This document shows positions 35,485 to 47,586 of a stretch of 64,000 bases of DNA, one piece after another. Position 1 is the stretch's first letter, and every line of letters starts with the position of its first letter. A program made the position numbers and the translations under genes. Under the pieces are notes generated by a model. That model was given only the letters and a program-made list of their open reading frames with translations, was not told the origin of the DNA and made no database searches. Location: the IMG/VR virus record IMGVR_UViG_3300026478_000263; one strand, given 5' to 3'. Origin of the DNA: a virus (Duplodnaviria; Heunggongvirae; Uroviricota; Caudoviricetes).

Positions 35485-36024
35485 ATGAAAACAGTTGGAC
35501 ATAAATTAGAAAAATTCGCAATTACTGGTGTTAAGCCAGGACAACCAGAAGATGCTTTCTTTGACATTACAGATGAAAGTTTTGCTGGCAAGTGGAAAGT
35601 AATCGTTTACTACCCAAAGGACTTCACATTCGTTTGCCCTACAGAGATTGTAGCCTACGATAAACTAGCAGGTGACTTTGCTGACCGTGACGCAGTATTG
35701 CTAACAGGTAGCACAGATAACGAGTTTTGTAAAATCGCATGGCAAAAAGCACACCCAGACTTACAGAAAATTACACATACACAATTTGCAGACACACAGC
35801 GTGGCGAGTTGTCATTGATTGAGCAGTTGGGTGTATTTTATGCTCCAGCAGGTGCGGCTCTACGTGCTACATTTATTGTTGACCCAGAGAACGTTATCCA
35901 GCACGTTACTGTCAACAACTTGAACGTTGGTCGTAGCCCAGAAGAAACTTTACGTATTCTTGATGCGCTACAAACTGGTGAGTTGTGCGCTTGTAACCGT
36001 ACAGTAGGCGGCGAAACTCTTTGA
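35485..36024 (+). CDS. peroxiredoxin (AhpC/TSA family)
   Basis: peroxidatic Cys motif FTFVCPTEI; 179 aa. Confidence 0.85.
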   Translation: MKTVGHKLEKFAITGVKPGQPEDAFFDITDESFAGKWKVIVYYPKDFTFVCPTEIVAYDKLAGDFADRDAVLLTGSTDNEFCKIAWQKAHPDLQKITHTQFADTQRGELSLIEQLGVFYAPAGAALRATFIVDPENVIQHVTVNNLNVGRSPEETLRILDALQTGELCACNRTVGGETL

Positions 36025-36458
36025 TAGGATCAATTATGCTTGATTGTTTAATCCTAGGCGATAGCCTAGCAGTAGGAGTAGGACAAGTTCGTACAGAATG
36101 TGTTACTCGTGCTAAGAGTGGCATTAACAGTTATGACTATGTTAATCGTCATGTGTTACACACTCAGGGCACTACACAGGCAAAAAATGTAATCATTAGT
36201 CTAGGGTCAAACGATACAGCAAAAATAAACACAGTGGAGGAACTAGACAGTCTAAGACAACTAGTAGACGCCACTCGTGTTTATTGGATTGTACCTAATA
36301 TCAAGGACGATAAGAGACGGGCAGTTCTTGCAGTAGCAGAAAAATACAAGGACTTTGTAATAGATGCTAGAAAGCACGAAACTAGCCCGGATCACGTACA
36401 CCCAACTTACAAAGGCTATAAAAGCATAGCCAAAGCAACTAAAGGAGACACACTATGA
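36021..36458 (+). CDS. SGNH/GDSL-like hydrolase (putative)
   Basis: LILGDSLAVGVG N-terminal block typical of the SGNH family; ATGA overlaps on both sides. Confidence 0.4.
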   Translation: MIGSIMLDCLILGDSLAVGVGQVRTECVTRAKSGINSYDYVNRHVLHTQGTTQAKNVIISLGSNDTAKINTVEELDSLRQLVDATRVYWIVPNIKDDKRRAVLAVAEKYKDFVIDARKHETSPDHVHPTYKGYKSIAKATKGDTL

Positions 36459-36973
36459 CACAATGGGTTGATCAATTAAAAGAAGGTTTACCAGAATACG
36501 CCAAGGACACAAAACTAAATCTGGATGCAGTAATCAAGCGTAGTACACTATCAGATGTTGTAGAAGCAGAAGGTTGTGCATTGGCCGCGGCTATGAGCAC
36601 CGGCAATGGAAAATTGATTAGTTTCATCATGAGCAACATCACAGACGAAAAAGAACGTGATGCCGCGATGACCGCTGGTTCAATTATGGCACAGAACAAC
36701 GTTTGGTATCCATATGTTGAGATGGCAGACGATGAGCAACTAAAGGGCTTGCCAGCACAGTTACGCATGAACGCTATCGCAAGCCATGGCGGAACTACCA
36801 AGGCTCGCTTTGAAGCATACAGTCTTGCCGCAAGTATTGTTGGCAAGTGTCATTTCTGTGTTAAGGCGCACTACGAAACATTGAAGAAGGAAGGCTACAC
36901 CGTAGAACAACTTCGTGACATCGGACGTATTGCCGCAGTGATCAATAGTCTAGCAAAAGTACTAAACGGTTAA
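36455..36973 (+). CDS. AhpD-like alkylhydroperoxidase (carboxymuconolactone decarboxylase family)
   Basis: CHFCVKAH CxxC-H motif; co-transcribed with peroxiredoxin. Confidence 0.75.
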   Translation: MTQWVDQLKEGLPEYAKDTKLNLDAVIKRSTLSDVVEAEGCALAAAMSTGNGKLISFIMSNITDEKERDAAMTAGSIMAQNNVWYPYVEMADDEQLKGLPAQLRMNAIASHGGTTKARFEAYSLAASIVGKCHFCVKAHYETLKKEGYTVEQLRDIGRIAAVINSLAKVLNG

Positions 36974-37030
36974 TACAAAAGTGTGGCGGTTTTCAAAATG
37001 TTGCAAAATCGCCACATTTCAACATAGGTA

Positions 37031-37059
37031 TTGACAAGTTTTATAAATACTCATATAAT
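37031..37059 (+). promoter_or_regulatory. sigma70 promoter TTGACA-17-TATAAT
   Basis: perfect hexamers; tandem with the promoter at 37124. Confidence 0.55.
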
Positions 37060-37123
37060 ACAAATATTGTAAAGCAATCACTTTCCACAAAACATTAGGT
37101 TGTCCAAAAAAGACAAAAAGATG

Positions 37124-37152
37124 TTGACAAAGATGTTGAAAGGCATTACAAT
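37124..37152 (+). promoter_or_regulatory. sigma70 promoter TTGACA-17-TACAAT
   Basis: consensus; drives small ORF 37211 and possibly the tRNA array. Confidence 0.5.
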
Positions 37153-37210
37153 ACAAAGACAGTAGCAATTCCGCTACAACTTTTAAGAAGGTAAGAAAAA
37201 GAGAAACAAA

Positions 37211-37372
37211 ATGCAAACGATTAGTTTACATAGACAAACGATATCTAAACAAGCCAAAGCGCCGGCATGTATGTCCGCCTATTGGTCACAGTTTAGTAAT
37301 GTCGGGCTAGGTCTAGGTAATGATCGTACACCTGAGATTATCGTAGGGTTCTTGGAGGATCGTGTAAGTTAA
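37211..37372 (+). CDS. hypothetical small protein (53 aa), not in ORF track
   Basis: RBS-like AAGAAGG upstream; followed by terminator hairpin 37395-37425. Confidence 0.3.
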   Translation: MQTISLHRQTISKQAKAPACMSAYWSQFSNVGLGLGNDRTPEIIVGFLEDRVS

Positions 37373-37394
37373 CAGTAACATACACAATAACTTT

Positions 37395-37425
37395 TAAGAA
37401 CCCTGGACTAAAAACCCAGGGTTTT
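37395..37425 (+). terminator. rho-independent terminator
   Basis: AACCCTGG..CCAGGGTT hairpin + TTTTTGTTTT. Confidence 0.65.
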
Positions 37426-37815
37426 TTGTTTTGTAAGATTTGGAAATGAAAATGAATTTTGAAGATTTTAGAAAACAGAAAAGTGCCAAAGTGCTAAGTG
37501 AGCATGAACTGGACGACGATGCTTTTGAAAAACTCATCGAAGAAAAGTTTAATCGTGCTCGTGCTTATCACACAGCACTTTACAAGAGAGAAGTTGAGCT
37601 CGTAGAGCAAGACTAATCTCAAACGTGTTATAGGGAACGCGACCCTGCCTGCACGTAAAACATGGGCTTAATGTGGGCGGCCTACCGGATGGTAAGTTCT
37701 AGGCGATAACTAGAATGTGTAAAAAGGTAGCGTATTAAAGCATACTGCCGAACAATCAAATGGCAGTAGCCGATGAGTAGTATGCTTTAATACACACTTT
37801 CGAAAGAGAGTGTTA

Positions 37816-37890
37816 TGTATCCCTAGTGTTAATGGCAGCACGACAGTCTCCAAAACTGCTAGTCGGGGTTCGAGTCCCTGGGGGTACGCC
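37816..37890 (+). tRNA. tRNA-Trp (CCA)
   Basis: acceptor GTATCCC/GGGGTAC, anticodon loop CTCCAAA, T-loop TTCGAGT, CCA encoded. Confidence 0.75.
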
Positions 37891-37895
37891 AATAA

Positions 37896-37973
37896 TGCAA
37901 CGGTGGCAGAGAGGCCCAATGCAACGGATTGCAAATCCGTAAAACCGTCAGTTCAAATCTGACCCGTTGCTCC
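37896..37973 (+). tRNA. tRNA-Cys (GCA)
   Basis: acceptor GCAACGG/CCGTTGC, anticodon arm ACGGA-TTGCAAA-TCCGT, T-arm GTCAG-TTCAAAT-CTGAC. Confidence 0.8.
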
Positions 37974-37981
37974 AGGTTATA

Positions 37982-38071
37982 TCCCCCGTTAGCTCATGGA
38001 GAGCAGGTCGGCTTATAACCGATTAATCTAGATAAGGTCCAGGATGAGGTTCGATTCCTCAACGGGGGACC
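37982..38071 (+). tRNA. class II-like tRNA (90 nt, long variable arm), anticodon loop CTTATAA (formal anticodon TAT) - isotype unresolved
   Basis: acceptor CCCCCGT/ACGGGGG + A + CCA, T-arm TGAGG-TTCGATT-CCTCA, 21-nt variable region. Confidence 0.5.
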
Positions 38072-38243
38072 ATAAGGAGAATATTATGGCAGTACTTGTA
38101 GTGTTAGTTATAATGTTCGTGTTGTATCAAGTTTTGAAAAAATATTAAAAGGAGAGTAGCATGAAACGTGCTAAACGTTAGTGTCACTCTAGATCTCCCG
38201 TATGGTCTAGGGTTGGCACGTAAAATCAAATCAATACGTACAA

Positions 38244-38319
38244 CCCTGTTTAGCGTCAATGGTAGCGCACTTGACTCTTAATCAATGAGGTGTGAGTTCG
38301 AATCTCACAGCAGGGACCA
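38244..38319 (+). tRNA. tRNA-Lys (CTT)
   Basis: anticodon loop CTCTTAA, T-arm GTGAG-TTCGAAT-CTCAC, CCA encoded. Confidence 0.7.
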
Positions 38320-38322
38320 TAT

Positions 38323-38397
38323 GGGGGTATAACTTAATGGTTAAAGTAGCGGGCTTTTAACCCGTAAATCAGAGTTCGATTCTCTGTGCCCCTACCA
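38323..38397 (+). tRNA. tRNA-Lys (TTT)
   Basis: anticodon arm GCGGG-CTTTTAA-CCCGT, T-arm CAGAG-TTCGATT-CTCTG. Confidence 0.8.
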
Positions 38398-38579
38398 TAT
38401 GAAAGCATTCTTAACTGGTCGCATAGCGTCAGTAGTAAGGACGGGCCACCATCTTATGACGAAAAAGGCATAAGAGTGCTTCCATATGGTAGTGTATAAA
38501 AACAAACTAACCACAGCCAGGAACTATAGACTCTGGGTGCATAGCGCATTGTCGTTAGTTTCTTTTTGTATAGTATTAT

Positions 38580-38653
38580 TCCTGGATAGTTAAATGGTAT
38601 AACAATCGGCTGATAACCGGTCATTCTGAGTTCAATTCTCGGTCCAGGAACCA
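38580..38653 (+). tRNA. tRNA-Ile (GAT)
   Basis: perfect acceptor TCCTGGA/TCCAGGA, anticodon loop CTGATAA. Confidence 0.75.
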
Positions 38654-38659
38654 ATTTAC

Positions 38660-38734
38660 ATAGCGTTCGACTTCTGGGGAGGTCATCACCCTTTCAAGGT
38701 GACTAGGCGGGTTCGATCCCCGTACGCTATACCA
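38660..38734 (+). tRNA. tRNA-Glu (TTC)
   Basis: perfect acceptor ATAGCGT/ACGCTAT, anticodon arm TCACC-CTTTCAA-GGTGA. Confidence 0.75.
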
Positions 38735-38819
38735 GAGCAAATAGAGATCTTGTGGGTTCATCCATGTTCTCTCAATGTTTGTTAGTTTCAATGGGTGGTA
38801 TAGAAACTAACACCAATTT

Positions 38820-38894
38820 GGGGGCAGTAGTGGGCTACGGTCTTCCCTTGCAAGGAAGATGTCTAGAAGGATTCGATTTCCTCGGCCTCCACCA
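38820..38894 (+). tRNA. tRNA-Ala (TGC)-like with truncated D-arm
   Basis: acceptor GGGGGCA/GGCCTCC with G3-U70, anticodon arm CTTCC-CTTGCAA-GGAAG; D region only 15 nt, variable 8 nt. Confidence 0.45.
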
Positions 38895-38983
38895 AATTTG
38901 CGACAATGGTGGGTTAACCGGCCTTGCCGGGGCATTCTAGATTACCGCGAAGGTTCGAGTCCTTCGGTCGCAATTATTTTTAT

Positions 38984-39061
38984 CTCTGCGTAATGTCAAT
39001 CTGGTAGACGGCCTGATCTGGAGTCAGGAGGCTGTACGTTCGAATCGTACCGTGGAGACCA
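38984..39061 (+). tRNA. tRNA-Pro (TGG)-like (C33 in anticodon loop)
   Basis: anticodon arm CCTGA-TCTGGAG-TCAGG, T-arm GTACG-TTCGAAT-CGTAC, CCA encoded. Confidence 0.5.
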
Positions 39062-39066
39062 ATTTT

Positions 39067-39141
39067 GCCCTTGTATCCTTAGTGGTAGAGGTCCTGTTTT
39101 GTAAGCAGGGTGTGGTGGTTCGATTCCATCCTGGGGCACCA
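39067..39141 (+). tRNA. tRNA-Thr (TGT), second copy
   Basis: anticodon arm CCTGT-TTTGTAA-GCAGG, T-arm GGTGG-TTCGATT-CCATC. Confidence 0.6.
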
Positions 39142-39367
39142 AGTTTTGTAAGTGTCAGCAAGAGAATGTCACGCTATTGTAGGTAAGTTCGAACTACCTT
39201 AATAGTAAAAGGGGACGGGTTCAACTCCCGGGGGATCGGAAGATCCCTGCAGATTGGTTGCTAACTGGACTAGTATCCCAAGTGACGTACCGAGTCCCAG
39301 CCGGCTTTATATACATGGGTGAATGGTTGCTATAACGATGGGGCAACTACTTACAAATTCAATCTGT

Positions 39368-39441
39368 TGGCCTATGGTGTAATGGTAACACAACTGACTT
39401 TGACTCAGTCGTTCCAGGTTCGAGTCCTGGTAGGCCTGCCA
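39368..39441 (+). tRNA. tRNA-Gln (TTG)
   Basis: anticodon arm ACTGA-CTTTGAC-TCAGT, discriminator G, weak 1-72 pair as in bacterial tRNA-Gln. Confidence 0.7.
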
Positions 39442-39448
39442 ATTTTAA

Positions 39449-39525
39449 CGGTCCTTAACTCAATGGATTAGAGTGCCAGTCTTCGAAACTGGAGGTTGGG
39501 AGTTCGAGTCTCTCAGGGCCGGCCA
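39449..39525 (+). tRNA. tRNA-Arg (TCG)
   Basis: anticodon arm CCAGT-CTTCGAA-ACTGG, D-stem ACTC/GAGT. Confidence 0.75.
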
Positions 39526-39527
39526 AT

Positions 39528-39602
39528 GGTGTTGCTAGTGTAGTGGTCCGCACGGCTGTCTGTGAAACAGTAAGGCAGGGTTCGATTCCCGGCTTCACCC
39601 CA
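39528..39602 (+). tRNA. tRNA-His (GTG) with G-1
   Basis: anticodon arm GCTGT-CTGTGAA-ACAGT, extra 5' G pairing with C73, two U-U mismatches in acceptor stem. Confidence 0.6.
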
Positions 39603-39608
39603 AATATC

Positions 39609-39684
39609 GCCGCTTTAGCAAATGTGGTCATTGCACCGGTTTGAAGCACCGAGGAACTTGGTTCGATCCCAAGGGGCGGCACCA
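39609..39684 (+). tRNA. tRNA-Phe (GAA)
   Basis: anticodon loop TTGAAGC, T-arm CTTGG-TTCGATC-CCAAG. Confidence 0.75.
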
Positions 39685-39691
39685 TAATTAT

Positions 39692-39768
39692 GCCCTTGTA
39701 CGCTAATTGGTAATGCGAATGGATTTAAAATCCGTTGTGTGTAGGTTCGAATCCAACCAAGGGTACCA
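39692..39768 (+). tRNA. type-I (short variable arm) tRNA with anticodon TAA (Leu codon UUA) - atypical
   Basis: anticodon arm ATGGA-TTTAAAA-TCCGT, 5-nt variable loop, discriminator A, CCA encoded. Confidence 0.55.
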
Positions 39769-39769
39769 T

Positions 39770-39841
39770 GCCTCTGCTGATGGAGCAGTGCCAGGTCTTC
39801 TAAACCAGGTTATAGTAGTTCGAATCTACTCAGAGGCGCCA
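39770..39841 (+). tRNA. tRNA-Arg (TCT)-like, short D-arm
   Basis: perfect acceptor GCCTCTG/CAGAGGC, anticodon loop CTTCTAA, T-arm AGTAG-TTCGAAT-CTACT; 72 nt. Confidence 0.5.
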
Positions 39842-39843
39842 AG

Positions 39844-39917
39844 GCTCTTGTAGGTAAATGGTATACCAGTGTCTTGGTACGACACAATCGAAAGTTCGAT
39901 TCTTTCCTTGAGCACCA
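39844..39917 (+). tRNA. tRNA-Thr (GGT)
   Basis: anticodon arm GTGTC-TTGGTAC-GACAC; two U-U mismatches in acceptor. Confidence 0.65.
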
Positions 39918-39922
39918 GATAT

Positions 39923-40000
39923 ACCCCTGTGGACAAATTGGTAAAGTCGTCTCTCTCAAAAGGAGAAGTTCTCTCCGTTCGAATCGGAGCAGGGGTACCA
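39923..40000 (+). tRNA. type-I tRNA with anticodon CAA (Leu codon UUG) - atypical
   Basis: perfect acceptor ACCCCTG/CAGGGGT, anticodon arm TCTCT-CTCAAAA-GGAGA, 6-nt variable loop, discriminator A. Confidence 0.55.
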
Positions 40001-40046
40001 CATTTGTAGCAGATTCTATCTACAACGAATTATACAAGTAAAACAA

Positions 40047-40136
40047 CGAAGCGTGGCAGAGTCCGGTTTATTGCACCTGTCTTGAAAACAGACGATCCGA
40101 AAGGGTCCGTGAGTTCGAATCTCACCGCTTCGGCCA
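40047..40136 (+). tRNA. tRNA-Ser (TGA)
   Basis: class II, perfect acceptor CGAAGCG/CGCTTCG, anticodon loop CTTGAAA, long variable arm GATCC-GAAA-GGGTC. Confidence 0.8.
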
Positions 40137-40143
40137 AAAGGTG

Positions 40144-40172
40144 TTGACTTGTTTAACAGTTGATCGTATAAT
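40144..40172 (+). promoter_or_regulatory. sigma70 promoter TTGACT-17-TATAAT inside tRNA array
   Basis: consensus hexamers 9 nt upstream of tRNA-Ser(GCT). Confidence 0.55.
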
Positions 40173-40180
40173 ACAAATAT

Positions 40181-40275
40181 AGTGAGTTGGCCGAGCTGGT
40201 CGAAGGCACCTTCCTGCTAAGAAGGCATTCCTGCAAAAACGGGGATCAAGGGTTCGAATCCCTTACTCACTGCCA
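40181..40275 (+). tRNA. tRNA-Ser (GCT)
   Basis: class II, perfect acceptor AGTGAGT/ACTCACT, anticodon arm CCTTC-CTGCTAA-GAAGG. Confidence 0.8.
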
Positions 40276-40282
40276 AAATGTC

Positions 40283-40311
40283 TTGACTAGTTTCTAAAGT
40301 TCATATACAAT
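40283..40311 (+). promoter_or_regulatory. sigma70 promoter TTGACT-17-TACAAT inside tRNA array
   Basis: consensus hexamers upstream of tRNA-Tyr. Confidence 0.5.
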
Positions 40312-40362
40312 AGAGACTAGTTAAGAAATTAACCTAGTTCTTTAAAAATTTCAAGCAGATAT

Positions 40363-40448
40363 GGATGTGTAGGAAAATTGGTAACCCCAGTGGACTGTAA
40401 ATCCGCCGCCTTACGGCACTGCTGGTTCGACTCCAGCCGCATCCACCA
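40363..40448 (+). tRNA. tRNA-Tyr (GTA)
   Basis: class II, anticodon arm GTGGA-CTGTAAA-TCCGC, T-arm GCTGG-TTCGACT-CCAGC. Confidence 0.75.
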
Positions 40449-41093
40449 TTAAGAAATAGCATTGACGGGTATCGTCTATGGACGCATAGACTTATGAAGG
40501 ATAAGGCCATCTTACCCTTCTGAGAAAACCGTGAACAATGGCTTATGAGGAGAATCGAACTCCACTCAGAAATACGTTTCATCCCATAGGGTGTAATGTT
40601 ATTTTTTAATGGTAAAAATTTAAGGGTAGTTTATTATCCTGTTGGCGGTTCGCCGTTGACGAAGAATAAGTTGAGTGATCAACCCAAAGGAGGTAAGCCT
40701 ACGCAACTCCGCCAGTAATGGTTCATGTAAACAAGCCTGCTCACTACCGCGAGGTAGCGTTCACTGAGAAGACCGGTGGATGTAACAATGAAGCAAGTGT
40801 TAGGGAAAGAATGTGTATCGACTGGCCCGCAAGGGAACCAGGGTGCATGAAAAGTAACGGGTGGTGCTGACTTCCTAACAAAACCAACTTGCGAATTGGT
40901 ATGAGAAAGGGTAGTGTATTTGTCCAAGGGGTCGCTCCTAAGGGCTTGTATGCAATATTAATGGTTAGTGGACTGTTTTGATGCAGGACATTGATCGTGA
41001 AATATCACTGAGTAGTCCGCGAGACAAAAGGTATGTGGTGAGTTGTATTCAGTAATCCAAAAGGTTATTGAGCAACAGAGGCAGCTCATCGCG

Positions 41094-41169
41094 GTAGGTT
41101 TGATATAGCGTAATGGTAACGCAATTGCCTCTTAAGCAATGGACTGTTGGTTCGATCCCAACTATCGAT
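41094..41169 (+). tRNA. tRNA-Lys(CTT)-like, defective acceptor stem, no CCA (possible pseudo-tRNA)
   Basis: D-arm GCG-TAATGGTAA-CGC, anticodon arm ATTGC-CTCTTAA-GCAAT, T-arm GTTGG-TTCGATC-CCAAC; 5' acceptor pairs poorly. Confidence 0.3.
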
Positions 41170-41588
41170 TATAAAATGCAAAGACTGCCTCGGTCATATG
41201 TGAAAAGCATCTAATACTCGAGCCGCAAGGTAATCGAGTCAGACGTAGCTCGCAAGGTGAAATCTGTTTATGCTGGAAGTTTCGTAAGTGGTTAGCGCCG
41301 CTGAATGGCTCGCAAGGTCAACGGAGTAGATAGCGTAGAATAGCATATGGCGACAAGACTACTGCCTGTCTTTAAAAACGGCGATGCTGATAGTGGACAT
41401 AGGTACAGTAATGGCTTATGTGGATGTCTAGAGAAGGTTGGCTCGCAAGGCTGACTATAATGCTAGAGGCACTATTGGCTAACGTATAATCTCAGCGTTA
41501 GCACTATTCTAAAACACATTAGCTCGAACCGAATAACGGCATTATAAATGCTTCTGGTAGTTGGTTAGTGTGTTTCAGAATAGAATTT

Positions 41589-41665
41589 GCACCGTTAGCT
41601 CAGTTGGTCAGAGCGCCGGCCTGTCACGTCGGAGGCCAGGGGTTCAAGTCCCCTACGGTGCGCCA
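41589..41665 (+). tRNA. tRNA-Asp (GTC)
   Basis: perfect acceptor, anticodon loop CTGTCAC identical to the E. coli tRNA-Asp loop. Confidence 0.85.
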
Positions 41666-41679
41666 AGATAACTATTAAT

Positions 41680-42483
41680 ATGAAAACACTTTTAATTTTA
41701 GGAGATTGCCAAAGTAATGGCAATAATTGTTTGGCTGGTGACATAGTCAACGACGATGCTCCGAGGACTTGGAGTCTACGTTTCCATAATGATTTTAGAA
41801 GTGTTTTTAAATGGTATCTAAAACATAGAAAAGAAAACAATGTTACAACACCTATGCCCAATGGCAATATGGAAAATGTTGTTTGGCATTATCTATGGGA
41901 AGAAGAACAAAAAGCCGCATGGCCTAATTTCTTAAATGTTTCCAATGTAGTTAATATATCTATTAACGGTGGACATTTTATAGGTCATCACAAAAGATTA
42001 AAACAGTACCTAGCAGAGAATCCTAAACCGGATCATGTATTAGTTACAGATTACACGTTTAGTCATATAGCACACAGTTTCAAATATAACAATCAACGAT
42101 ATGTATTTGAACGTGAAAATTATGTAGACGGAGAATGGAATCCAGATAGATATCCAATTGAAGTTCATAAAAAGCGATTAAACGGTATTGCTTTTCAAAA
42201 AAGTCAAAGCAAAGATTGGCATATTCGTAGACATAGAAATGGTTACAATATGTTAATTAAGTTTTTAGATTCTCAAAATATTAAATGGACGACTGTTAGG
42301 TTTGGAGATCCTAATCCTGACAACTCAGAAATTTTTAAAGAGTTTATGCACACTGGTATAGATTGTACTGAATACGGAAAACAGTATATGAGTGCTAATG
42401 GTGAGAATGCAAAAATTAAATTGTCTGTGCAAGAAAAAATTGCAACGACAATTCAGGAATACTTAAATAGTATTGTCAGTTAA
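41680..42483 (+). CDS. SGNH/GDSL-like hydrolase (putative) embedded in tRNA array
   Basis: N-terminal LILGDCQSNGNN resembles the GDS(L) block; 267 aa intact ORF. Confidence 0.4.
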   Translation: MKTLLILGDCQSNGNNCLAGDIVNDDAPRTWSLRFHNDFRSVFKWYLKHRKENNVTTPMPNGNMENVVWHYLWEEEQKAAWPNFLNVSNVVNISINGGHFIGHHKRLKQYLAENPKPDHVLVTDYTFSHIAHSFKYNNQRYVFERENYVDGEWNPDRYPIEVHKKRLNGIAFQKSQSKDWHIRRHRNGYNMLIKFLDSQNIKWTTVRFGDPNPDNSEIFKEFMHTGIDCTEYGKQYMSANGENAKIKLSVQEKIATTIQEYLNSIVS

Positions 42484-42484
42484 T

Positions 42485-42568
42485 GCCCTGGTGGTGGAAT
42501 GGTAGACACGCTGGTCTTAGAAGCCAGTGGCGAGAGCCGTGAGAGTTCGAGTCTCTCCTGGGGCACCA
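42485..42568 (+). tRNA. tRNA-Leu (TAG)
   Basis: class II with 13-nt variable arm, anticodon arm CTGGT-CTTAGAA-GCCAG. Confidence 0.8.
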
Positions 42569-42574
42569 AAATAT

Positions 42575-42650
42575 GCGGGTGAAGTGTTTGTGGTTACACG
42601 TCAGTCTTCCAAACTGAAATAGACGAGTTCAACTCTCGCCTCCCGCTCCA
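42575..42650 (+). tRNA. tRNA-Gly (TCC)
   Basis: anticodon arm TCAGT-CTTCCAA-ACTGA; U-U at 6-67. Confidence 0.7.
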
Positions 42651-42655
42651 TCATT

Positions 42656-42732
<77 letters not shown>

Positions 42733-42742
42733 ATGTTAGTTT

Positions 42743-42817
42743 GCCTGGTTAGCTCAGTGGTAGAGCGTCTCGTTTACACCGAGAGGGTCGGCAGTTCGAA
42801 ACTGTCACCAGGTACCA
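42743..42817 (+). tRNA. tRNA-Val (TAC)
   Basis: anticodon arm TCTCG-TTTACAC-CGAGA. Confidence 0.8.
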
Positions 42818-42824
42818 AGTTTAT

Positions 42825-42900
42825 TCCCTAGTAGCTCAGCGGTAGTAGCACCTGACTGTTAATCAGGGTGTCGGTGGTTCGATCCCACCCTGGGGAGCCA
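42825..42900 (+). tRNA. tRNA-Asn (GTT)
   Basis: anticodon arm CCTGA-CTGTTAA-TCAGG. Confidence 0.8.
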
Positions 42901-42906
42901 AGTAAT

Positions 42907-42982
42907 GCACGGTTCGTCTATCGGTTTAGGACACTGGCCTTTCACGTCAGTAAGACGGGTTCGATTCCCGTACCGTGTACCA
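42907..42982 (+). tRNA. tRNA-Glu (TTC), second copy
   Basis: anticodon loop CTTTCAC as in E. coli tRNA-Glu. Confidence 0.75.
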
Positions 42983-43030
42983 TATATGGCCTTTGGATAA
43001 GTTATAAACTTTGCCTTAGGTTCTTCATAT

Positions 43031-43106
43031 GCGGGAGTAGCTCAGTTGGTAGAGCATTACCTTGCCAAGGTAAATGTCGCGAGTTCGAACCTCGTCTCCC
43101 GCTCCA
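43031..43106 (+). tRNA. tRNA-Gly (GCC)
   Basis: perfect acceptor GCGGGAG/CTCCCGC, anticodon arm TTACC-TTGCCAA-GGTAA. Confidence 0.85.
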
Positions 43107-43172
43107 GTTTTGCCAAAAGGCATTGATTTAGATTTAAAAGATTGTATAATAGAAACATTAAAGGAAAAACAA

Positions 43173-43745
43173 ATGAATATCTCCCTACGTAAGGCAAATG
43201 CACTTCAGAACAGTATCAACGATACCGTCAAAGGTTTCCAGTTTGAGACCACAGTAAAAATCAACGAGTTCCAAGAAGCGGAACAAGAAATTTCCAAAGT
43301 TGCAGGAACACTCTGCGACAACCTTACACGCAGAGATGCGTTAGTGGAAGCACTTTACGAGATTCGTAAAAGTGTCAGCGGTGCTAACACAGAAGTTAGA
43401 ATCGACACTAGATTGGCCGATGTTGCACATCTAGAAAAACAAATCCAATTCTACAACGGATTGGCTAGTAAGACCGTTCGCGAAAGCGCAAAGGTTGTAG
43501 CAGGTCGTTTGGACAAGATCCGTAACGACAAAAGCGAAAACCGTCGTAGCATCTATGGCTACAACGACACAGTAGACACTAGTGTGCTCACTCGTGAAGA
43601 TCTAGACGGATTCCGTCGTAGAGTGGCAACTGCTAAAAAGCAGAAACAAAAACTTCAGGATGAAATCCTAGAGTTAAATGTTCAGACAACTATCCAATTG
43701 TCTGACAAAACAGAAGCAGTTCTGCAAGCAGAAGGTTTACTGTAA
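43173..43745 (+). CDS. hypothetical coiled-coil protein
   Basis: AAAGGAAAAAC RBS then ATG at 43173 (track ORF 43074 N-terminus overlaps tRNA-Gly and was trimmed). Confidence 0.4.
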   Translation: MNISLRKANALQNSINDTVKGFQFETTVKINEFQEAEQEISKVAGTLCDNLTRRDALVEALYEIRKSVSGANTEVRIDTRLADVAHLEKQIQFYNGLASKTVRESAKVVAGRLDKIRNDKSENRRSIYGYNDTVDTSVLTREDLDGFRRRVATAKKQKQKLQDEILELNVQTTIQLSDKTEAVLQAEGLL

Positions 43746-44082
43746 CAGACCCCGCGTTAACTCAGCGTGATAGAGTTAGGTAATTGCTACACCTTAATGG
43801 CTCGGTGCATTGGATCTACCGCAAGGCTTGTTTAAAGCGACTTGAGAAATCACAAAGGCGGACCTCAGCACCGTCTAAATGGAAAGGCTAGTGGACAGAG
43901 TAACAGCTCGGTTTAGGGCTCCTGTGGTGGGAGTGGCTAGACACTTTATAAATGCTCTCTGAGCTGAACTACACTGGATAACACGAGTTAGGTGCTAAGT
44001 CGACTACCCACCGAAAGTGCCAGGAAGATAAGGAGCTCAGCAGGTTTCGTTCGAGTCGAACAGAGAGCACCTATAAAGTTAT

Positions 44083-44156
44083 CGCGGGATAGAGAAACGG
44101 TAACTCAAGAGTCTCATAAGCTCTAGATCCTGGTTCGATTCCAGGTCCCGCAACCA
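44083..44156 (+). tRNA. tRNA-Met (CAT) with C1-A72 mismatch (initiator-like acceptor end)
   Basis: begins CGCGGGA, ends TCCCGCAACCA as in bacterial tRNA-fMet; anticodon loop CTCATAA. Confidence 0.65.
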
Positions 44157-44695
44157 AGTTTTGGCAAAGGCGAAAGCCCGAGCCTGGAGTAGAGAAGGAG
44201 ATTAGGATAGACAGACTTAGGCTACATGCCTAAGGTTTGATCTCTTATAGAGACCGAACATCAACTACTGGCAAAACGTCTTGAAAACGTTTCGTGCTTG
44301 TGTGAACCAGTTCTATATATTAATCGACTTTGTGAGTTGCTAACTGGAAATATACAGGTCCCTGTGCTTTGCGCCTTGTGACTTGTTAAGGGTATCTTTA
44401 TAGAGCCCGCTTGTACATTGTCCAGTCTATTACTTGCCTTTCTCTCTCCACCCCTTTTATTAGTAAGTAGTTAAGGTTCTAAAAGCATCCGCAAGGAGTT
44501 AACAAAGATCGGAAGTTTTTGTTAATTGAAGTTATAAACTTTAATGCTGTAGAGTATATGTATCAAGCGCCGGTGCAAGGTGAGCGGATTGAGACTACAA
44601 GAACTTCATGTTGGGCTAGACAAAGAGAGGGACGAATCGCACCGTCGGATGGCCTTACCCAAACCAAAACTCTCGGGACATCTTACTAATAATCT

Positions 44696-44770
44696 GGTAA
44701 CGTAGCATAATGGTCGTGCACCTCCTTCATACGGAGCAAGGTGTGAGTTCGAATCTCACCGTTACCACCA
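44696..44770 (+). tRNA. tRNA-Met/Ile2 (CAT), second CAT tRNA
   Basis: perfect acceptor GGTAACG/CGTTACC, anticodon loop TTCATAC. Confidence 0.7.
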
Positions 44771-44793
44771 TAACACCATAATCTGCCCACTAA

Positions 44794-45249
44794 ATGCTAA
44801 ATAGTTATATGCTAACATTAATCAGAGAAACTACTAATCCATTACTTGACTATATCAAGGATGATCCAGTACGTCCAGAAATTCCCAAAGAATTTCGTGT
44901 TAGCGGTAGCAGATTTGTCGCCACCACTGTAGAAGGCGAAAAACCACGTGCAATGGTCTGTGTTAGTCTGCACGATTTTGTGCCAACAACTGTTGAAGAT
45001 TTGGCTAAAACACCCACAGAACCAACTACAGCAATCTTCTATACAATTTGGAGTTATGCGCCGGGTGCGGCCGCAGAGCTACTTTTTGGTGTAGTGGATC
45101 AAATAAAAGAACTTTTCCCAACTGTTAATCGTTTTGTAACACTTAGCCCAAAAACTGAAATGGCCTACAAGTTCCATATCAGAAATGGTGCCTGTGTGTT
45201 GCAAGAAAACGACAACACAGTGAACTACGAATACCTCATAACCCGTTGA
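44794..45249 (+). CDS. hypothetical protein
   Basis: 151 aa ORF between tRNA genes. Confidence 0.4.
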   Translation: MLNSYMLTLIRETTNPLLDYIKDDPVRPEIPKEFRVSGSRFVATTVEGEKPRAMVCVSLHDFVPTTVEDLAKTPTEPTTAIFYTIWSYAPGAAAELLFGVVDQIKELFPTVNRFVTLSPKTEMAYKFHIRNGACVLQENDNTVNYEYLITR

Positions 45250-45280
45250 CAAACTGCTGAAAAGGTTATATACTTAGTAT

Positions 45281-45388
45281 GTGACCGTGAGCGAATAGGC
45301 AGAGCTCCAGGACTGTTGTGAAACACTCCGTGGGTCGGGACTAGGCGATATGCCGTCCTTGGAGGTTCGAACCCTCCCGGTCACACCA
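45281..45388 (+). ncRNA. 108-nt tRNA-like RNA (canonical acceptor/T-arm/CCA, non-canonical 72-nt core)
   Basis: perfect 7-bp acceptor GTGACCG/CGGTCAC + A + CCA and T-arm GGAGG-TTCGAAC-CCTCC, but no standard D/anticodon arms could be folded. Confidence 0.4.
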
Positions 45389-45398
45389 AATTCCCTCC

Positions 45399-45473
45399 CT
45401 CGCTATAGTTCAATGGATAGAACGACTCTCTCCTAAAGAGTAAGTCTACGTTCGATTCGTAGTAGCGGGACCA
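45399..45473 (+). tRNA. tRNA-Arg (CCT)
   Basis: anticodon arm ACTCT-CTCCTAA-AGAGT, T-arm CTACG-TTCGATT-CGTAG. Confidence 0.8.
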
Positions 45474-45509
45474 ATTGACAAAATATTGAAGTGAAGATAT
45501 AATAATTGA

Positions 45510-45728
45510 ATGTATAAAGTAATATGGAAAGATGTAAACAAGAATGTTTACGAACGAGATTTTGATAATCTTGGCCCAGCAATGGATTGGGCAAAAACAT
45601 TGGCAGTATTTGTAACTATCAAAAGTAGCGAATACGAAATTGTTGGCATGTTTGGTGCTGACAGCATTGTAGATGGAAAGTGTCCAGACGGTGTAGATTA
45701 CACCTGGATGAAACGGCGAAAGCAGTAA
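45510..45728 (+). CDS. hypothetical small protein
   Basis: 72 aa ORF. Confidence 0.35.
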   Translation: MYKVIWKDVNKNVYERDFDNLGPAMDWAKTLAVFVTIKSSEYEIVGMFGADSIVDGKCPDGVDYTWMKRRKQ

Positions 45729-45737
45729 GGAGATATC

Positions 45738-46109
45738 ATGGGATATTGGGACAGAGAATATTGTAACGTTGATGTGTTGAAGGGCAAGACTTTGTCCAAC
45801 ATCAACGAGAGTGGCGACGAGATCGTTTTTGAAACCACAGATGGCGAACGCTATCGTATGTATCACGAGCAAGACTGTTGCGAAAGCGTAAGCATAGAAA
45901 GCATAGTCGGCGATTTGCAGGACTTAGTAGGTTCAGAGATTCTAATAGCAGAAGAAGTTGATGGCGAAAGCCCAGCCGACTTCGAAGCATACGAGTCTTA
46001 CACATGGACTTTCTACAAGTTTGCAACTCGCAAGGGTTATGTGGACATTCGTTGGCTAGGTCAATCGAATGGCTATTACAGTGAAAGAGTTGATTTTGTA
46101 AAGGAGTAA
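45738..46109 (+). CDS. hypothetical protein
   Basis: 123 aa; GGAG RBS. Confidence 0.4.
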   Translation: MGYWDREYCNVDVLKGKTLSNINESGDEIVFETTDGERYRMYHEQDCCESVSIESIVGDLQDLVGSEILIAEEVDGESPADFEAYESYTWTFYKFATRKGYVDIRWLGQSNGYYSERVDFVKE

Positions 46110-46111
46110 TT

Positions 46112-46480
46112 ATGTCAATGTACAACATGATATTTGGCATGAATCCCGATAGCGGAAAGTTACTTGAAATTCTAGGCAAAACTGCAAGCGACTTTGGTCG
46201 TTTCCGTAATGTCTATATGGATGAAGGTTACATTGTTGTTCATACACGTAATGGTGGTGGTAACCGTGAAGACTACGAAGATGTTTTTGATGAAATGTCA
46301 GAACATCCTTGGTACAGTCATGATGAGGACGACTCATTTGACTGCACTTATGCTAACATCTATTTCAAGGTTCCAGAAAACTACAAGGATTTTCTTGCTA
46401 TTATGAATCTTAACGAAGGTCAAAAGCCTAGTGAACAATGGGCTGAACTTTTCGGAATGATGGAAGCAATGAAAAAATAA
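46112..46480 (+). CDS. hypothetical protein
   Basis: 122 aa; tightly packed operon. Confidence 0.4.
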   Translation: MSMYNMIFGMNPDSGKLLEILGKTASDFGRFRNVYMDEGYIVVHTRNGGGNREDYEDVFDEMSEHPWYSHDEDDSFDCTYANIYFKVPENYKDFLAIMNLNEGQKPSEQWAELFGMMEAMKK

Positions 46481-46489
46481 GGAGGCATT

Positions 46490-46957
46490 ATGCCTTGGAT
46501 TGAAAATGTAGCCGCCGATGATATCCCAAAAAGATTTCATCACGAAGCAGGCGAAAATAGTATGCTGATTAGTATCGTTGACCCGGCGAGCTGGCGTCCT
46601 ACTCCTGCCCATAAGTTCAAGGAAATTCATAACTTTGAATTTTTGGACGTGGAGGAAAACGACCACGTAGACGACGAAGCAATGAAGTGTAGTCAAGAAC
46701 AAGCCAATCAACTTGTGGCTCTTTTACAACACGCTTTGGATAACAAAATGAACGTTGTTGTTCATTGTTTTGCTGGAATTTGTCGTAGCGGTGCTGTATG
46801 CGAAGTAGGCGTAATGCTGGGCTTTCAGGATACAGGGCGGTTTAGAAGCCCTAATCTGCTCGTTAAGCACAGAATGATGCGAGCCTTGGGTTGGACCTAC
46901 GATGCGGACGAAAAGCCCAACATCGACGATTGGCGCACATACAAGCCCGTTGTATAA
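46490..46957 (+). CDS. dual-specificity/protein-tyrosine phosphatase (CX5R)
   Basis: VHCFAGICRSGA active-site P-loop (HCxxGxxRS). Confidence 0.7.
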   Translation: MPWIENVAADDIPKRFHHEAGENSMLISIVDPASWRPTPAHKFKEIHNFEFLDVEENDHVDDEAMKCSQEQANQLVALLQHALDNKMNVVVHCFAGICRSGAVCEVGVMLGFQDTGRFRSPNLLVKHRMMRALGWTYDADEKPNIDDWRTYKPVV

Positions 46958-46984
46958 AAACAACATTTGCCCTGTCTTCGAGAG

Positions 46985-47013
46985 TTGACAGGGCGTTCTT
47001 TTGGCTGTATAAT
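46985..47013 (+). promoter_or_regulatory. sigma70 promoter TTGACA-17-TATAAT
   Basis: perfect hexamers upstream of 47038 gene. Confidence 0.6.
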
Positions 47014-47037
47014 ATAACAAGAAAGAAGAGCGAAAAA

Positions 47038-47586
47038 ATGAAAACATGGATTACAAGCGACTTACACTTTGGACATAAGAACATCATGAAGTTCTGTCCA
47101 GTGACGAGAGCACGATTTAAAGACGACGTTGCATATATGAACAACGCCATGGCCGAAGAATGGAACCATAAAGTCAAACCTGAAGACACAGTCTACATCT
47201 TAGGCGATGTAGCGTTCATGTCAGGTAGTGATGCTGGTAGAATGGTAAAGCGTTTGAATGGCACAAAGATTTTAATTAGAGGAAATCATGACCGTAAGAC
47301 ATTGATGGACGAAACGTTCCGTGGTGCGTTTGCAGAAGTACACGAGTATTTGGATATTACATATGATGGTCACAAGATTGTCATGTTTCACTATCCGATT
47401 GCTGAGTGGGATCAAATGCACAGAGGAGCATTACATTTTCATGGTCACTTACACGGAGGTGTTAGTGGATTAGAAAAGTATCGTGCATTCGATGTAGGTA
47501 TGGATTCAACCGGTGAGATTGTTGTGTCAATGGAATATGCGATTGGCAGAATTAAAAACAACGAAATTAAGGGTCATCATGTTTAA
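47038..47586 (+). CDS. metallophosphoesterase (calcineurin-like)
   Basis: DLHFGH, GDVAF, GNHD motifs; start trimmed to the Met after the promoter. Confidence 0.65.
   Translation: MKTWITSDLHFGHKNIMKFCPVTRARFKDDVAYMNNAMAEEWNHKVKPEDTVYILGDVAFMSGSDAGRMVKRLNGTKILIRGNHDRKTLMDETFRGAFAEVHEYLDITYDGHKIVMFHYPIAEWDQMHRGALHFHGHLHGGVSGLEKYRAFDVGMDSTGEIVVSMEYAIGRIKNNEIKGHHV

What the first reader, a model, noticed from the sequence alone, without database searches (positions are those of the whole stretch)
40449..41588. Structured non-coding islands with repeated GCAAGG (GNRA-tetraloop-like) hairpins
Between tRNA-Tyr and tRNA-Asp lie about 1.1 kb without credible ORFs, interrupted only by a defective tRNA-like at 41094. 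They are rich in complementary segments. A recurring motif (G)CYCGCAAGG appears at about 40816, 41222, 41249, 41304 and 41441. It occurs again at about 43818 and 44491 in the similar islands at 43746-44082 and 44157-44695. C-GCAA-G units are classic GNRA tetraloop hairpins of large structured RNAs. Candidates are self-splicing introns, RNase-P-like or other ribozyme RNAs, or phage sRNAs. Also unexplained are a 9-bp minihelix ending ACCA (38781-38815) and a T-loop-containing hairpin (about 39170-39215).
Basis: seen in the sequence. Interest (0 to 1): 0.7.

Follow-up and report, generated by a model that had tools for sequence, protein, structure and literature searches.

The report
GOLLD giant RNA in phage tRNA array
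The 1.1 kb "non-coding island" is a full-length GOLLD RNA, a known giant phage RNA of unknown function that builds hollow RNA cages, carrying a tRNA-like insert and preceded by a smaller structured RNA; the other islands nearby are separate conserved structured RNAs with no Rfam family.

Summary
CGCAAGG occurs 10 times in the window, all on the + strand, five of them within 40826-41450. These five sites are GNRA-type hairpin loops that stay conserved, with covarying stems, in 14 related phage contigs.

The interpretation as a large structured RNA is right, but the named candidates are wrong. Rfam places 41035-41498 in GOLLD (RF02032, 207 bits against a threshold of 150, whole model). The unit conserved in relatives runs from about 40609 to 41585, roughly 980 nt. 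It has three parts:
- a 5' domain with strong covariation (111 pairs, 53 compensatory);
- the Rfam 3' domain;
- a terminal hairpin that covaries across relatives.

The "defective tRNA" at 41098-41171 is the tRNA-like insert in the GOLLD linker. It is the only tRNA call in the window without an encoded CCA.

The first 160 nt (40449-40608) are a separate conserved structured RNA, here called A0. The islands at 39142-39367, 43746-44082 and 44157-44695 are not GOLLD. They are distinct conserved modules (E, B1, B2, C1, C2). All but B2 show covariation, and none has an Rfam match. C1 is linked to an uncharacterised 190-aa protein gene in more than 100 viral contigs.

Verdict: a new member of a known family, with possibly new RNA classes beside it.

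The parts
40283..40311 (+). Sigma-70-like promoter (TTGACT-17-TACAAT) upstream of tRNA-Tyr. It is the likely start of the transcript that carries tRNA-Tyr, A0, GOLLD and tRNA-Asp.
   Evidence: Consensus scan, 10 of 12 matches. No comparable promoter lies directly upstream of GOLLD. Function is inferred.
40363..40448 (+). tRNA-Tyr(GTA) with encoded CCA. Its 3' end abuts A0.
   Evidence: ARAGORN, Rfam tRNA, CCA check.
40449..40608 (+). Module A0: an independent structured RNA of about 160 nt whose 5' and 3' ends pair. It contains a T-loop-like hairpin (GGAG-AAUCGAA-CUCC).
   Evidence: Found in 33 related loci (28 distinct sequences), usually between tRNA-Leu(tag) and tRNA-Val/Pro and without GOLLD. 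The 18-sequence alignment A7 gives 39 pairs, 17 of them compensatory. Pairing is 98% against 29-45% when partners are slid. Single-sequence fold z = -3.2. No Rfam match.
40609..41034 (+). GOLLD 5' domain, the clade-specific 'variable' half. It includes an apical GNRA hairpin at 40826-40834.
   Evidence: Conserved at 74-84% identity and contiguous with the 3' domain in 14 or more relatives. Alignment A1 gives 111 pairs, 53 compensatory. Pairing is 97.8% against 36-43% slid, and 0 of 500 shuffles reach the observed values.
41035..41498 (+). GOLLD conserved 3' domain (Rfam RF02032, model positions 1-416), with GNRA hairpin loops at 41222-41230, 41249-41257, 41309-41317 and 41442-41450.
   Evidence: 207.2 bits against a gathering score of 150, E = 4e-57, not truncated. 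The same model passes its threshold in 14 of 15 related loci scanned. Loops are conserved with covarying stems.
41098..41171 (+). tRNA-like domain (anticodon CTT, Lys) inside the GOLLD linker. It has no encoded CCA and sits between the invariant flanks GUAGGUU and AAAAYGCAAAG.
   Evidence: ARAGORN and Rfam tRNA, 62.5 bits. Alignment of embedded tRNAs. It is the only tRNA call in the window without CCA. Across related GOLLDs, 0 of 26 embedded tRNAs have CCA, against 1828 of 1875 free-standing tRNAs.
41499..41588 (+). Terminal long hairpin of the GOLLD unit, lying beyond the Rfam model. It ends about 5 nt before tRNA-Asp.
   Evidence: -29.5 kcal/mol, z = -5.4. All 14 relatives fold the same hairpin, with an invariant AAACACA/UGUGUUU core, a covarying base and a variable apex.
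41589..41665 (+). tRNA-Asp(GTC). RNase P cleavage at its 5' end would define the GOLLD 3' end.
   Evidence: ARAGORN and Rfam, 71 bits. The processing step is inferred.
39142..39367 (+). Module E: a structured RNA of about 226 nt lying flush between tRNA-Thr and tRNA-Gln.
   Evidence: 27 loci, 20 distinct sequences. 30 pairs, 96.6% paired against 30-49% slid; 15 compensatory pairs against 2-6. Alignment A4. No Rfam match.
43746..43943 (+). Module B1: a structured element that starts right after the stop codon of the 190-aa protein gene.
   Evidence: 87 loci, 69 distinct sequences. 25-26 pairs, 13-15 of them compensatory. No Rfam match.
43944..44082 (+). Module B2: a conserved spacer that ends flush at tRNA-Met. 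Its structure is not resolved.
   Evidence: 27 loci. RNAalifold finds only 4 pairs.
44179..44458 (+). Module C1: a structured RNA of about 280 nt with a long-range closing helix and near-invariant UUG triplets, several runs of them spaced 7 nt apart.
   Evidence: Alignment A2 (24 sequences) gives 35 pairs, 25 compensatory; 96.3% paired against 31-46% slid; 0 of 500 shuffles. 102 distinct sequences. More than 115 viral contigs carry the core motif. The 190-aa gene lies downstream in nearly all of them. None of the 58 pattern matches in the genome collection is a C1.
44460..44692 (+). Module C2: a structured RNA of about 230 nt with a closing helix (UUAGUAAG/CUUACUAA) and a conserved CC-GNRA-GG loop at 44488-44497.
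   Evidence: 25 loci, 17 distinct sequences. 35 pairs, 94% paired against 30-46% slid; 24 compensatory pairs against 5-9. Alignment A5.

Best explanation
Positions 40609-41585 encode one full-length GOLLD RNA of about 980 nt on the + strand. [quoted passage not shown]

The RNA has four parts:
- a clade-specific 5' domain (40609-41034);
- the universally conserved 3' domain (41035-41498);
- a tRNA-like domain without CCA in the linker near the start of the 3' domain (41098-41171);
- a terminal long hairpin (41499-41585).

The recurring C-GCAA-G units are its GNRA tetraloop hairpins.

Inferred mechanism, step by step:
1. GOLLD is transcribed with the tRNA array, from the promoter at 40283 or from an unrecognised phage promoter.
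2. The tRNA-processing enzymes that trim the flanking tRNA-Tyr and tRNA-Asp cut it free.
3. It folds and, like the GOLLD solved by cryo-EM, self-assembles into a hollow 14-subunit RNA cage. GNRA/A-minor contacts and kissing loops hold the cage together, and the linker with its tRNA-like domain lies inside.

Its cellular role is unknown. My best guess is sequestration or display of tRNA-like or translation-related cargo late in infection.

The first 160 nt of the interval (40449-40608, module A0) are a separate small structured RNA released from the same precursor.
For: Shown here:
- Rfam GOLLD scores 207 bits against a threshold of 150, over the whole model. The same model passes in 14 of 15 related loci scanned.
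- The conserved block spans 40609-41528, plus the arms of the terminal hairpin.
- The 5' domain has 111 pairs, 53 compensatory, 97.8% paired against about 40% in slid controls.
- The GNRA loops are conserved over covarying stems.
- The setting is a 33-tRNA array of a phage that encodes RIIA.
- The tRNA-like insert is conserved in position. Its anticodon varies (Asn 11, Lys 12, Leu 2, Ile 1) and it never encodes CCA.
- Module boundaries lie flush with tRNA ends.

From the literature (PMC12286853):
- GOLLD RNAs exceed 800 nt and are encoded in phages and prophages near tRNA islands.
- Their expression rises during lysis.
- The env-38 member forms a D7 14-mer cage 380 A across.
Against: - There are no expression or end-mapping data for this uncultured phage, so transcript ends and processing are inferred.
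- Cage formation was shown for one distant member only. The 5' domain here cannot be aligned to that member at sequence level (score 45 against shuffles at 44 +/- 7). The quaternary structure could therefore differ.
- If RNase P and RNase Z do excise the tRNA-like insert, the RNA would be split in two.
- No function can be derived from sequence.
Confidence: 0.9

Rival explanations
1. The region is a self-splicing group I or II intron, an RNase P-like RNA or another known ribozyme.
For: GNRA tetraloops and many helices are typical of such RNAs. There is no ORF.
Against: The sensitive Rfam scan of 37500-46000 at E <= 1 found only GOLLD, tRNAs and chance-level matches. It found no intron, RNase P, 6S or tmRNA model. 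The region is fully accounted for by GOLLD plus A0. No interrupted host gene flanks it.
Confidence: 0.01
2. The islands are decayed tRNA genes and neutral spacers of a rapidly rearranging tRNA array, with no function of their own.
For: Module D (38735-39066) does consist of non-canonical tRNA-like genes. Relaxed ARAGORN calls tRNA-Ala(tgc) at 38820-38894 and a tRNA-Pro(tgg)-like gene at 38986-39061, and a sequence profile of D drifts onto all tRNAs. Modules shuffle position between genomes. T-loop-like hairpins occur in A0 and E.
Against: GOLLD, A0, E, B1, C1 and C2 are conserved across contigs whose shared protein is only 41-80% identical. Their substitutions are compensatory: 94-98% of positions pair against 30-49% in slid controls. 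Neutral spacers would not keep helices.
Confidence: 0.04
3. GOLLD here works as two pieces. The embedded tRNA-like domain is excised by RNase P and RNase Z, receives CCA from the host enzyme and serves as an extra tRNA-Lys. The 5' domain and the rest of the 3' domain are separate RNAs or by-products.
For: The insert scores as a good tRNA (62.5 bits). Its D, anticodon and T arms are conserved, with a standard 7-nt anticodon loop. Many bacteria add CCA after transcription (established knowledge).
Against: The window already has free-standing tRNA-Lys(CTT) and tRNA-Lys(TTT) genes. 97.5% of free-standing tRNAs in this clade encode CCA, while 0 of 26 embedded ones do. By eye on the alignment, acceptor stems of the embedded copies in relatives look shortened or mismatched, and the flanks are invariant GOLLD sequence. 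The anticodon drifts among Lys, Asn, Leu and Ile, and 5 of 31 GOLLDs have no tRNA call at all.
Confidence: 0.12
4. The interval encodes small proteins. The 40-82 aa ORFs are real genes.
For: ORFs of 82 aa (40334-40582 and 40679-40927, minus strand) and of 40-50 aa exist.
Against: Substitutions among relatives are paired and compensatory, and insertions and deletions fall in hairpin apices without regard to reading frame. The Rfam model explains the sequence. I did not run a codon-periodicity test.
Confidence: 0.01

Closest known systems
GOLLD RNA (Rfam RF02032; first described in 2009; cryo-EM structure of env-38, PMC12286853)
   Same: The 3' domain matches the whole Rfam model above threshold. 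Total size is about 1 kb. The layout is a variable 5' half plus a conserved 3' half. The gene lies in a phage tRNA array. A tRNA sits in the linker. GNRA hairpins are abundant.
   Different: The 5' domain is specific to this clade and cannot be aligned to env-38 at sequence level. An extra conserved terminal hairpin extends about 85 nt past the Rfam model. The embedded tRNA-like domain consistently lacks CCA in a clade whose true tRNA genes encode it. I do not know whether that last point has been reported before.
GOLLD of Caulobacter phiCbK-like phages and of Sinorhizobium phage Phosso
   Same: These are the only GenBank phage matches to the interval. The match covers the start of the 3' domain plus the embedded tRNA, which is annotated tRNA-Lys in the Caulobacter phages. 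The phiCbK-type GOLLDs appear in the published GOLLD alignment.
   Different: Identity is only 67-69% over 180-310 nt, with no detectable similarity in the 5' domain. The phage itself is unrelated: its RIIA is at best 29.5% identical to that of XacN1.
ROOL RNA (Rfam RF03087)
   Same: It is another large ornate phage RNA found near tRNA islands that forms an RNA-only cage. By analogy it was a candidate for the other islands (B, C).
   Different: No ROOL match at E <= 1 anywhere in 37500-46000. Modules B1, C1, C2, E and A0 are 160-280 nt each and occur independently of one another.
Phage T4 stable RNAs 'species 1' and 'species 2' (rnaC, rnaD) in the T4 tRNA cluster (from my own knowledge, not checked here)
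   Same: They are small stable structured RNAs of unknown function, encoded between tRNA genes, co-transcribed with them and released by tRNA-processing enzymes. This is the arrangement proposed for A0, E and C2.
   Different: I made no sequence comparison. The modules here are larger and belong to an uncultured jumbo-phage clade.

Membership tests
GOLLD RNA (RF02032) | Covariance-model score at or above Rfam's curated gathering score, over the full model | tested here: met
   207.2 bits against 150, model positions 1-416 of 416, E = 4e-57.
GOLLD RNA (RF02032) | Helices of the conserved 3' domain are kept in relatives | tested here: met
   14 of 15 related loci scanned pass the threshold at 189-238 bits. 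Hairpin stems under the GNRA loops covary.
GOLLD RNA (RF02032) | Giant size (over 800 nt), with a less conserved structured 5' half joined to the 3' half | tested here: met
   Contiguous conserved block 40609-41528. 5' domain: 111 pairs, 53 compensatory. The family feature is taken from PMC12286853.
GOLLD RNA (RF02032) | Encoded in a phage or prophage, next to tRNA genes; a tRNA is sometimes found in the linker | tested here: met
   33 ARAGORN tRNA calls in the window, most of them in an array at 37817-45473, plus an RIIA gene. tRNA-like Lys(CTT) inside the region the model treats as an insertion.
GOLLD RNA (RF02032) | 5' domain homologous to that of the structurally solved member (env-38) | tested here: inconclusive
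   The local alignment score is no better than shuffles. A structure-level comparison was not possible with these tools.
GOLLD RNA (RF02032) | Self-assembly into a D7 14-mer nanocage through kissing loops and A-minor bridges | not testable with these tools
   Needs in-vitro transcription followed by cryo-EM or mass photometry. The bridge-forming positions were not mapped.
GOLLD RNA (RF02032) | Expression rises late in infection or at lysis | not testable with these tools
   The phage is uncultured and no transcriptome is available.
Canonical tRNA (the insert at 41098-41171) | Cloverleaf with a 7-bp acceptor stem and a 3' CCA, which this phage encodes in the gene | tested here: not met
   The cloverleaf scores 62.5 bits. 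However, acceptor pairing is 6 of 7 and no CCA is encoded, while all 32 other tRNA calls in the window have CCA. Across relatives the count is 0 of 26 against 1828 of 1875.
   No such match at E <= 1 in 37500-46000. The window's tmRNA lies elsewhere, at 26466-26908.
ROOL RNA (considered for islands B and C) | Match to the Rfam covariance model | tested here: not met
   No match at E <= 1.

The most novel reading that the evidence does not exclude
This tRNA array is an island of structured RNAs. Besides GOLLD it carries at least five conserved, covariation-supported RNA modules with no Rfam family: A0, E, B1, C1 and C2.

The most widespread is C1. It is about 280 nt long, has 102 distinct sequences and occurs in more than 115 viral contigs; none of the 58 pattern matches in a collection of 185,579 genomes is a C1. 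Its near-invariant UUG triplets include runs spaced exactly 7 nt apart. It is genetically coupled to an uncharacterised, all-helical 190-aa protein family with more than 2,000 metagenomic members, whose gene is usually flanked by C1 on the 5' side and B1 on the 3' side. In the window's clade C1 has moved downstream of a tRNA-Met yet remains conserved. That argues for a trans-acting RNA-protein partnership rather than a purely cis-acting leader.

Separately, the CCA-less tRNA-like domain in the GOLLD linker is mostly Lys or Asn. It could be a caged decoy for host anticodon nucleases rather than a tRNA.
Probability: 0.45. Interest if true: 0.7.

Novelty: new member of a known kind. Interest (0 to 1): 0.45.

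Why it matters
GOLLD is among the largest bacterial or phage non-coding RNAs, and its function is still unknown even though its cage structure has been solved. This clade of uncultured jumbo phages adds several things:
- dozens of full-length GOLLD variants with a well-resolved 5' domain;
- an extra terminal hairpin beyond the Rfam model;
- a clear comparative signal that the linker tRNA is kept as a fold but not as a usable tRNA, since it has no CCA, its anticodon drifts, and free tRNA-Lys genes exist elsewhere in the array.

That signal bears directly on the hypothesis that tRNAs are the cargo of the cage.

The neighbouring modules suggest that phage tRNA arrays are a rich and under-annotated source of structured RNAs. 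At least one of them (C1) appears paired with an unknown protein family.

Tried and rejected
2. Close relatives among GenBank phages: megablast of 36000-48000 hit only single tRNAs. blastn of the B/C islands found nothing.
3. Homology of the 5' domain to the cryo-EM GOLLD env-38, using the sequence from the paper's supplement: the alignment score equals the shuffled background.
4. Identity of the 190-aa protein next to the islands:
   - no Pfam or PHROGs family;
   - no tblastn hit in GenBank phages;
   - more than 2,000 metagenomic homologues, all but one of those that carry a name being 'hypothetical protein';
   - a confident AlphaFold model (pLDDT 89), all helical;
   - best PDB match a protein of unknown function, TM 0.38-0.46.
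   This was uninformative.
5. C1 in bacterial or archaeal genomes: 58 pattern matches, about what chance predicts by my own estimate. None was confirmed by nhmmer.
6. Module D as a new RNA: rejected. It consists of non-canonical tRNA-like genes.
7. Single-sequence folding energies of B and E do not differ from shuffles. Only the comparative analysis revealed their structure.
8. B2: no consensus structure obtained.
9. Helix 2 of my 5'-domain fold (alignment columns 59-62 with 474-477) is probably an artefact of where I cut the alignment. Its 3' strand belongs to the first helix of the Rfam 3' domain, and it shows no compensatory change.
10. The published survey of viral structured-RNA candidates (PMC10690425) lists unnamed motifs of 29-151 nt. 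I could not check whether it already contains pieces of these modules.

Full report
**Context.** The window comes from a phage. It encodes an RIIA homologue (PHROG 612, E = 2e-138). ARAGORN tRNAs, most of them in an array on the + strand between 37817 and 45473, and there is also a permuted tmRNA. No cultured phage is close: megablast finds only isolated tRNAs, and RIIA is at best 29.5% identical to that of jumbo phage XacN1. Relatives do exist among uncultured viral contigs. A conserved 190-aa protein encoded at 43173-43745 retrieved 62 IMG/VR loci, from contigs of up to 400 kb. A DNA motif later retrieved over 100 more.

**Observation.** CGCAAGG occurs 10 times in the window, always on the + strand, against 4.8 expected on both strands. 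Five copies lie within 40826-41450. CYCGCAAGG occurs 5 times against 0.39 expected. No ORF in 40449-41588 exceeds 82 aa.

**Identity of the main interval.**
- Rfam places 41035-41498 in GOLLD (RF02032) at 207.2 bits. The gathering score is 150, E = 4e-57, and model positions 1-416 are all matched without truncation.
- The tRNA-Lys(CTT) call at 41098-41171 falls in the stretch that the model treats as a variable insertion.
- A sensitive scan of 37500-46000 at E <= 1 found no intron, RNase P, 6S or ROOL match.
- The same model passes its threshold in 14 of the 15 related loci I scanned, at 189-238 bits.
[quoted passage not shown] Every sequence-level feature on that list is met here.

**Extent of the RNA.**
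- Aligning the interval with 14 relatives shows conservation starting abruptly at about 40609 and continuing to about 41528.
- The 5' part (40609-41034) is 74-84% identical to relatives and always contiguous with the Rfam domain.
- On 13 sequences, RNAalifold predicts 111 pairs, 53 with compensatory changes. 97.8% of positions pair, against 36-43% when partners are slid. There are 53 double-change pairs against 8-10 in the slid controls, and no shuffle out of 500 reaches the observed values.
- Downstream of the Rfam model, 41499-41588 folds into a very stable hairpin (-29.5 kcal/mol, z = -5.4). All 14 relatives have the same hairpin. Its AAACACA/UGUGUUU core is invariant, its base covaries and its apex varies.
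- The GOLLD unit is therefore about 40609-41585, roughly 980 nt.
- Its 5' domain cannot be aligned to env-38 at sequence level. That fits the family's 'variable' 5' half but leaves homology of that half untested.

**The GCAAGG motifs.** All five copies in the interval are hairpin loops. One sits at the apex of a long 5'-domain helix (40826). Four are in the 3' domain (41222, 41249, 41309, 41442). In the relatives the loops stay GNRA (GCAA, GUAA or GAAA) while the stems beneath them covary. For example, GAGCC-GCAA-GGU, GACAC-GCAA-GUG and GAGUG-GUAA-CAC occupy the same position. In the solved GOLLD, A-minor contacts and kissing loops hold the cage together. That these particular loops serve such contacts is my inference.

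**The embedded tRNA.**
- It is a good cloverleaf: 62.5 bits, with conserved D, anticodon and T arms.
- It is the only tRNA call in the window without an encoded CCA, and one acceptor pair is mismatched.
- Across 31 distinct related GOLLDs the insert is called Asn(GTT) 10 times, Lys(CTT) 10, Lys(TTT) 2, Leu(TAG) 2, Asn(ATT) 1 and Ile(TAT) 1. Five have no call.
- None of the 26 called inserts has CCA, whereas 1828 of 1875 free-standing tRNAs in the same loci do.
- Its flanks, GUAGGUU and AAAAYGCAAAG, are invariant.
- Free tRNA-Lys(CTT) and tRNA-Lys(TTT) genes exist elsewhere in the array.
- I read it as a structural or cargo domain of GOLLD rather than a working tRNA gene. Excision followed by CCA addition is not excluded (rival, 0.12).

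**The first 160 nt (A0).**
- Positions 40449-40608 are not GOLLD. The same module occurs in 33 related loci, usually between tRNA-Leu(tag) and tRNA-Val or tRNA-Pro with no GOLLD nearby.
- Eighteen sequences give 39 pairs, 17 of them compensatory. 98% pair, against 29-45% slid.
- Its two ends pair with each other and that helix covaries (by eye). The single-sequence fold has z = -3.2.
- It starts at the base after the CCA of tRNA-Tyr.

**The other islands.** They are not related to GOLLD. All are conserved modules that lie flush against tRNA genes or against the 190-aa gene, and they change position between genomes.
- **E (39142-39367):** 30 pairs, 96.6% paired against 30-49% slid, 15 compensatory against 2-6.
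- **B1 (43746-43943):** starts right after the stop codon of the 190-aa gene in 87 loci; 25-26 pairs, 13-15 compensatory.
- **B2 (43944-44082):** conserved, but no structure was resolved.
- **Island C (44157-44695):** splits into C1 and C2.
- **C1 (about 44179-44458):** 35 pairs, 25 compensatory, 96.3% paired against 31-46% slid, 0 of 500 shuffles. Across 102 distinct sequences it keeps near-invariant UUG triplets, including runs spaced exactly 7 nt apart.
- **C2 (44460-44692):**
- None of these modules has an Rfam match at E <= 1.
- **Island 38735-39066 (module D):** largely non-canonical tRNA-like genes.

**C1 and the 190-aa protein.**
- In nearly all of these the 190-aa gene lies downstream on the same strand, 7-16, 28-63 or about 220-280 nt away.
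- Only a few contigs share the window's arrangement, in which C1 sits after tRNA-Met. Three of them (L085, L133 and L075) come from the same contigs as relatives L001, L008 and L004.
- In 596 Gb of bacterial and archaeal genomes the motif matched 58 times. By my own estimate that is about chance, and none of the matches is a real C1.
- The protein has more than 2,000 metagenomic homologues. It has no Pfam or PHROGs family and no GenBank phage hit. Its AlphaFold model is confident and all helical. It has no informative structural neighbour.
- C1 stays conserved after relocation. To me that suggests a trans-acting RNA partnered with the protein rather than only a leader, but this is inference.

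**Mechanism and confidence.**
- Identity as GOLLD: 0.9 or higher.
- Release from a polycistronic tRNA precursor is inferred from the flush boundaries and from the promoter at 40283.
- Cage assembly is inferred from homology of the 3' domain to the solved member. I put it at about 0.5-0.6.
- Biological role: unknown.

**Novelty.** The main object is a new member of a known family. Two points may be new. One is the comparative evidence that linker tRNAs lack CCA. The other is the set of accompanying RNA modules with no Rfam family, C1 above all. I could not check these modules against unnamed candidates in published surveys.

Noticed in passing
44179-44458 (C1) and 43173-43745 (190-aa ORF); loci L063-L176: C1 is a covariation-supported RNA of about 280 nt with near-invariant UUG triplets, including runs spaced exactly 7 nt apart. 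In more than 100 viral contigs it lies next to an uncharacterised all-helical 190-aa protein gene. The protein has no Pfam or PHROGs family and more than 2,000 metagenomic homologues. Neither has a known family.
   Followed up: partly
43746-43943 (B1): A conserved structured element starts directly after the stop codon of the 190-aa gene in 87 loci. In most relatives the gene is therefore bracketed by C1 on the 5' side and B1 on the 3' side.
   Followed up: partly
41098-41171 and related GOLLD loci: tRNA-like inserts in the GOLLD linker never encode CCA (0 of 26), while 97.5% of free-standing tRNAs in the same contigs do. Their anticodons are mostly Lys or Asn but drift to Leu and Ile. Lys and Asn tRNAs are among the classic targets of anticodon nucleases (from my own knowledge), which suggests a decoy role.
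   Followed up: partly
38735-39066: This stretch holds non-canonical tRNA-like genes missed at default thresholds: tRNA-Ala(TGC) with a minimal D arm at 38820-38894, a tRNA-Pro(TGG)-like gene at 38986-39061 (Rfam tRNA, 31.6 bits), and a CCA-less tRNA-like fold at 38898-38975. There is also a 9-bp minihelix followed by ACCA at 38781-38815. The minihelix gave no match in the related loci I hold.
   Followed up: partly
26466-26908: A phage-encoded permuted (two-piece) tmRNA, with tag peptide ANASTFEYFTVEGFTADNGLVAA. It scores 138 bits with Rfam tmRNA_permuted and 129 bits with beta_tmRNA.
   Followed up: no
32620-32693: A tRNA with anticodon CTA, an amber-suppressor type that ARAGORN labels 'Pyl'. 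It scores 38 bits with the Rfam tRNA model. It might indicate TAG recoding in part of this phage's genes.
   Followed up: no
18137-20188: A phage ORF with a CHASE2 sensor domain fused to an adenylate/guanylate cyclase catalytic domain (Pfam E = 7e-37 and 8e-14).
   Followed up: no
40610-40625 and the homologous positions in relatives: An A/T-rich box, TA(T/A)AAGA(A/T)TT, is conserved just 5' of the first GOLLD helix (alignment A1, columns 12-24). It resembles a -10 or T4-late-type promoter element. It could give GOLLD its own late promoter, or it could simply be part of the RNA.
   Followed up: no
L003 2120-2195 and L006 4424-4474: Sequence homologous to the terminal hairpin region of GOLLD (41499-41588) occurs upstream of tRNA-Asp in two contigs, with no GOLLD detected in the stretch of those contigs I hold. 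It could be a remnant of a deleted GOLLD or an independent module.
   Followed up: no
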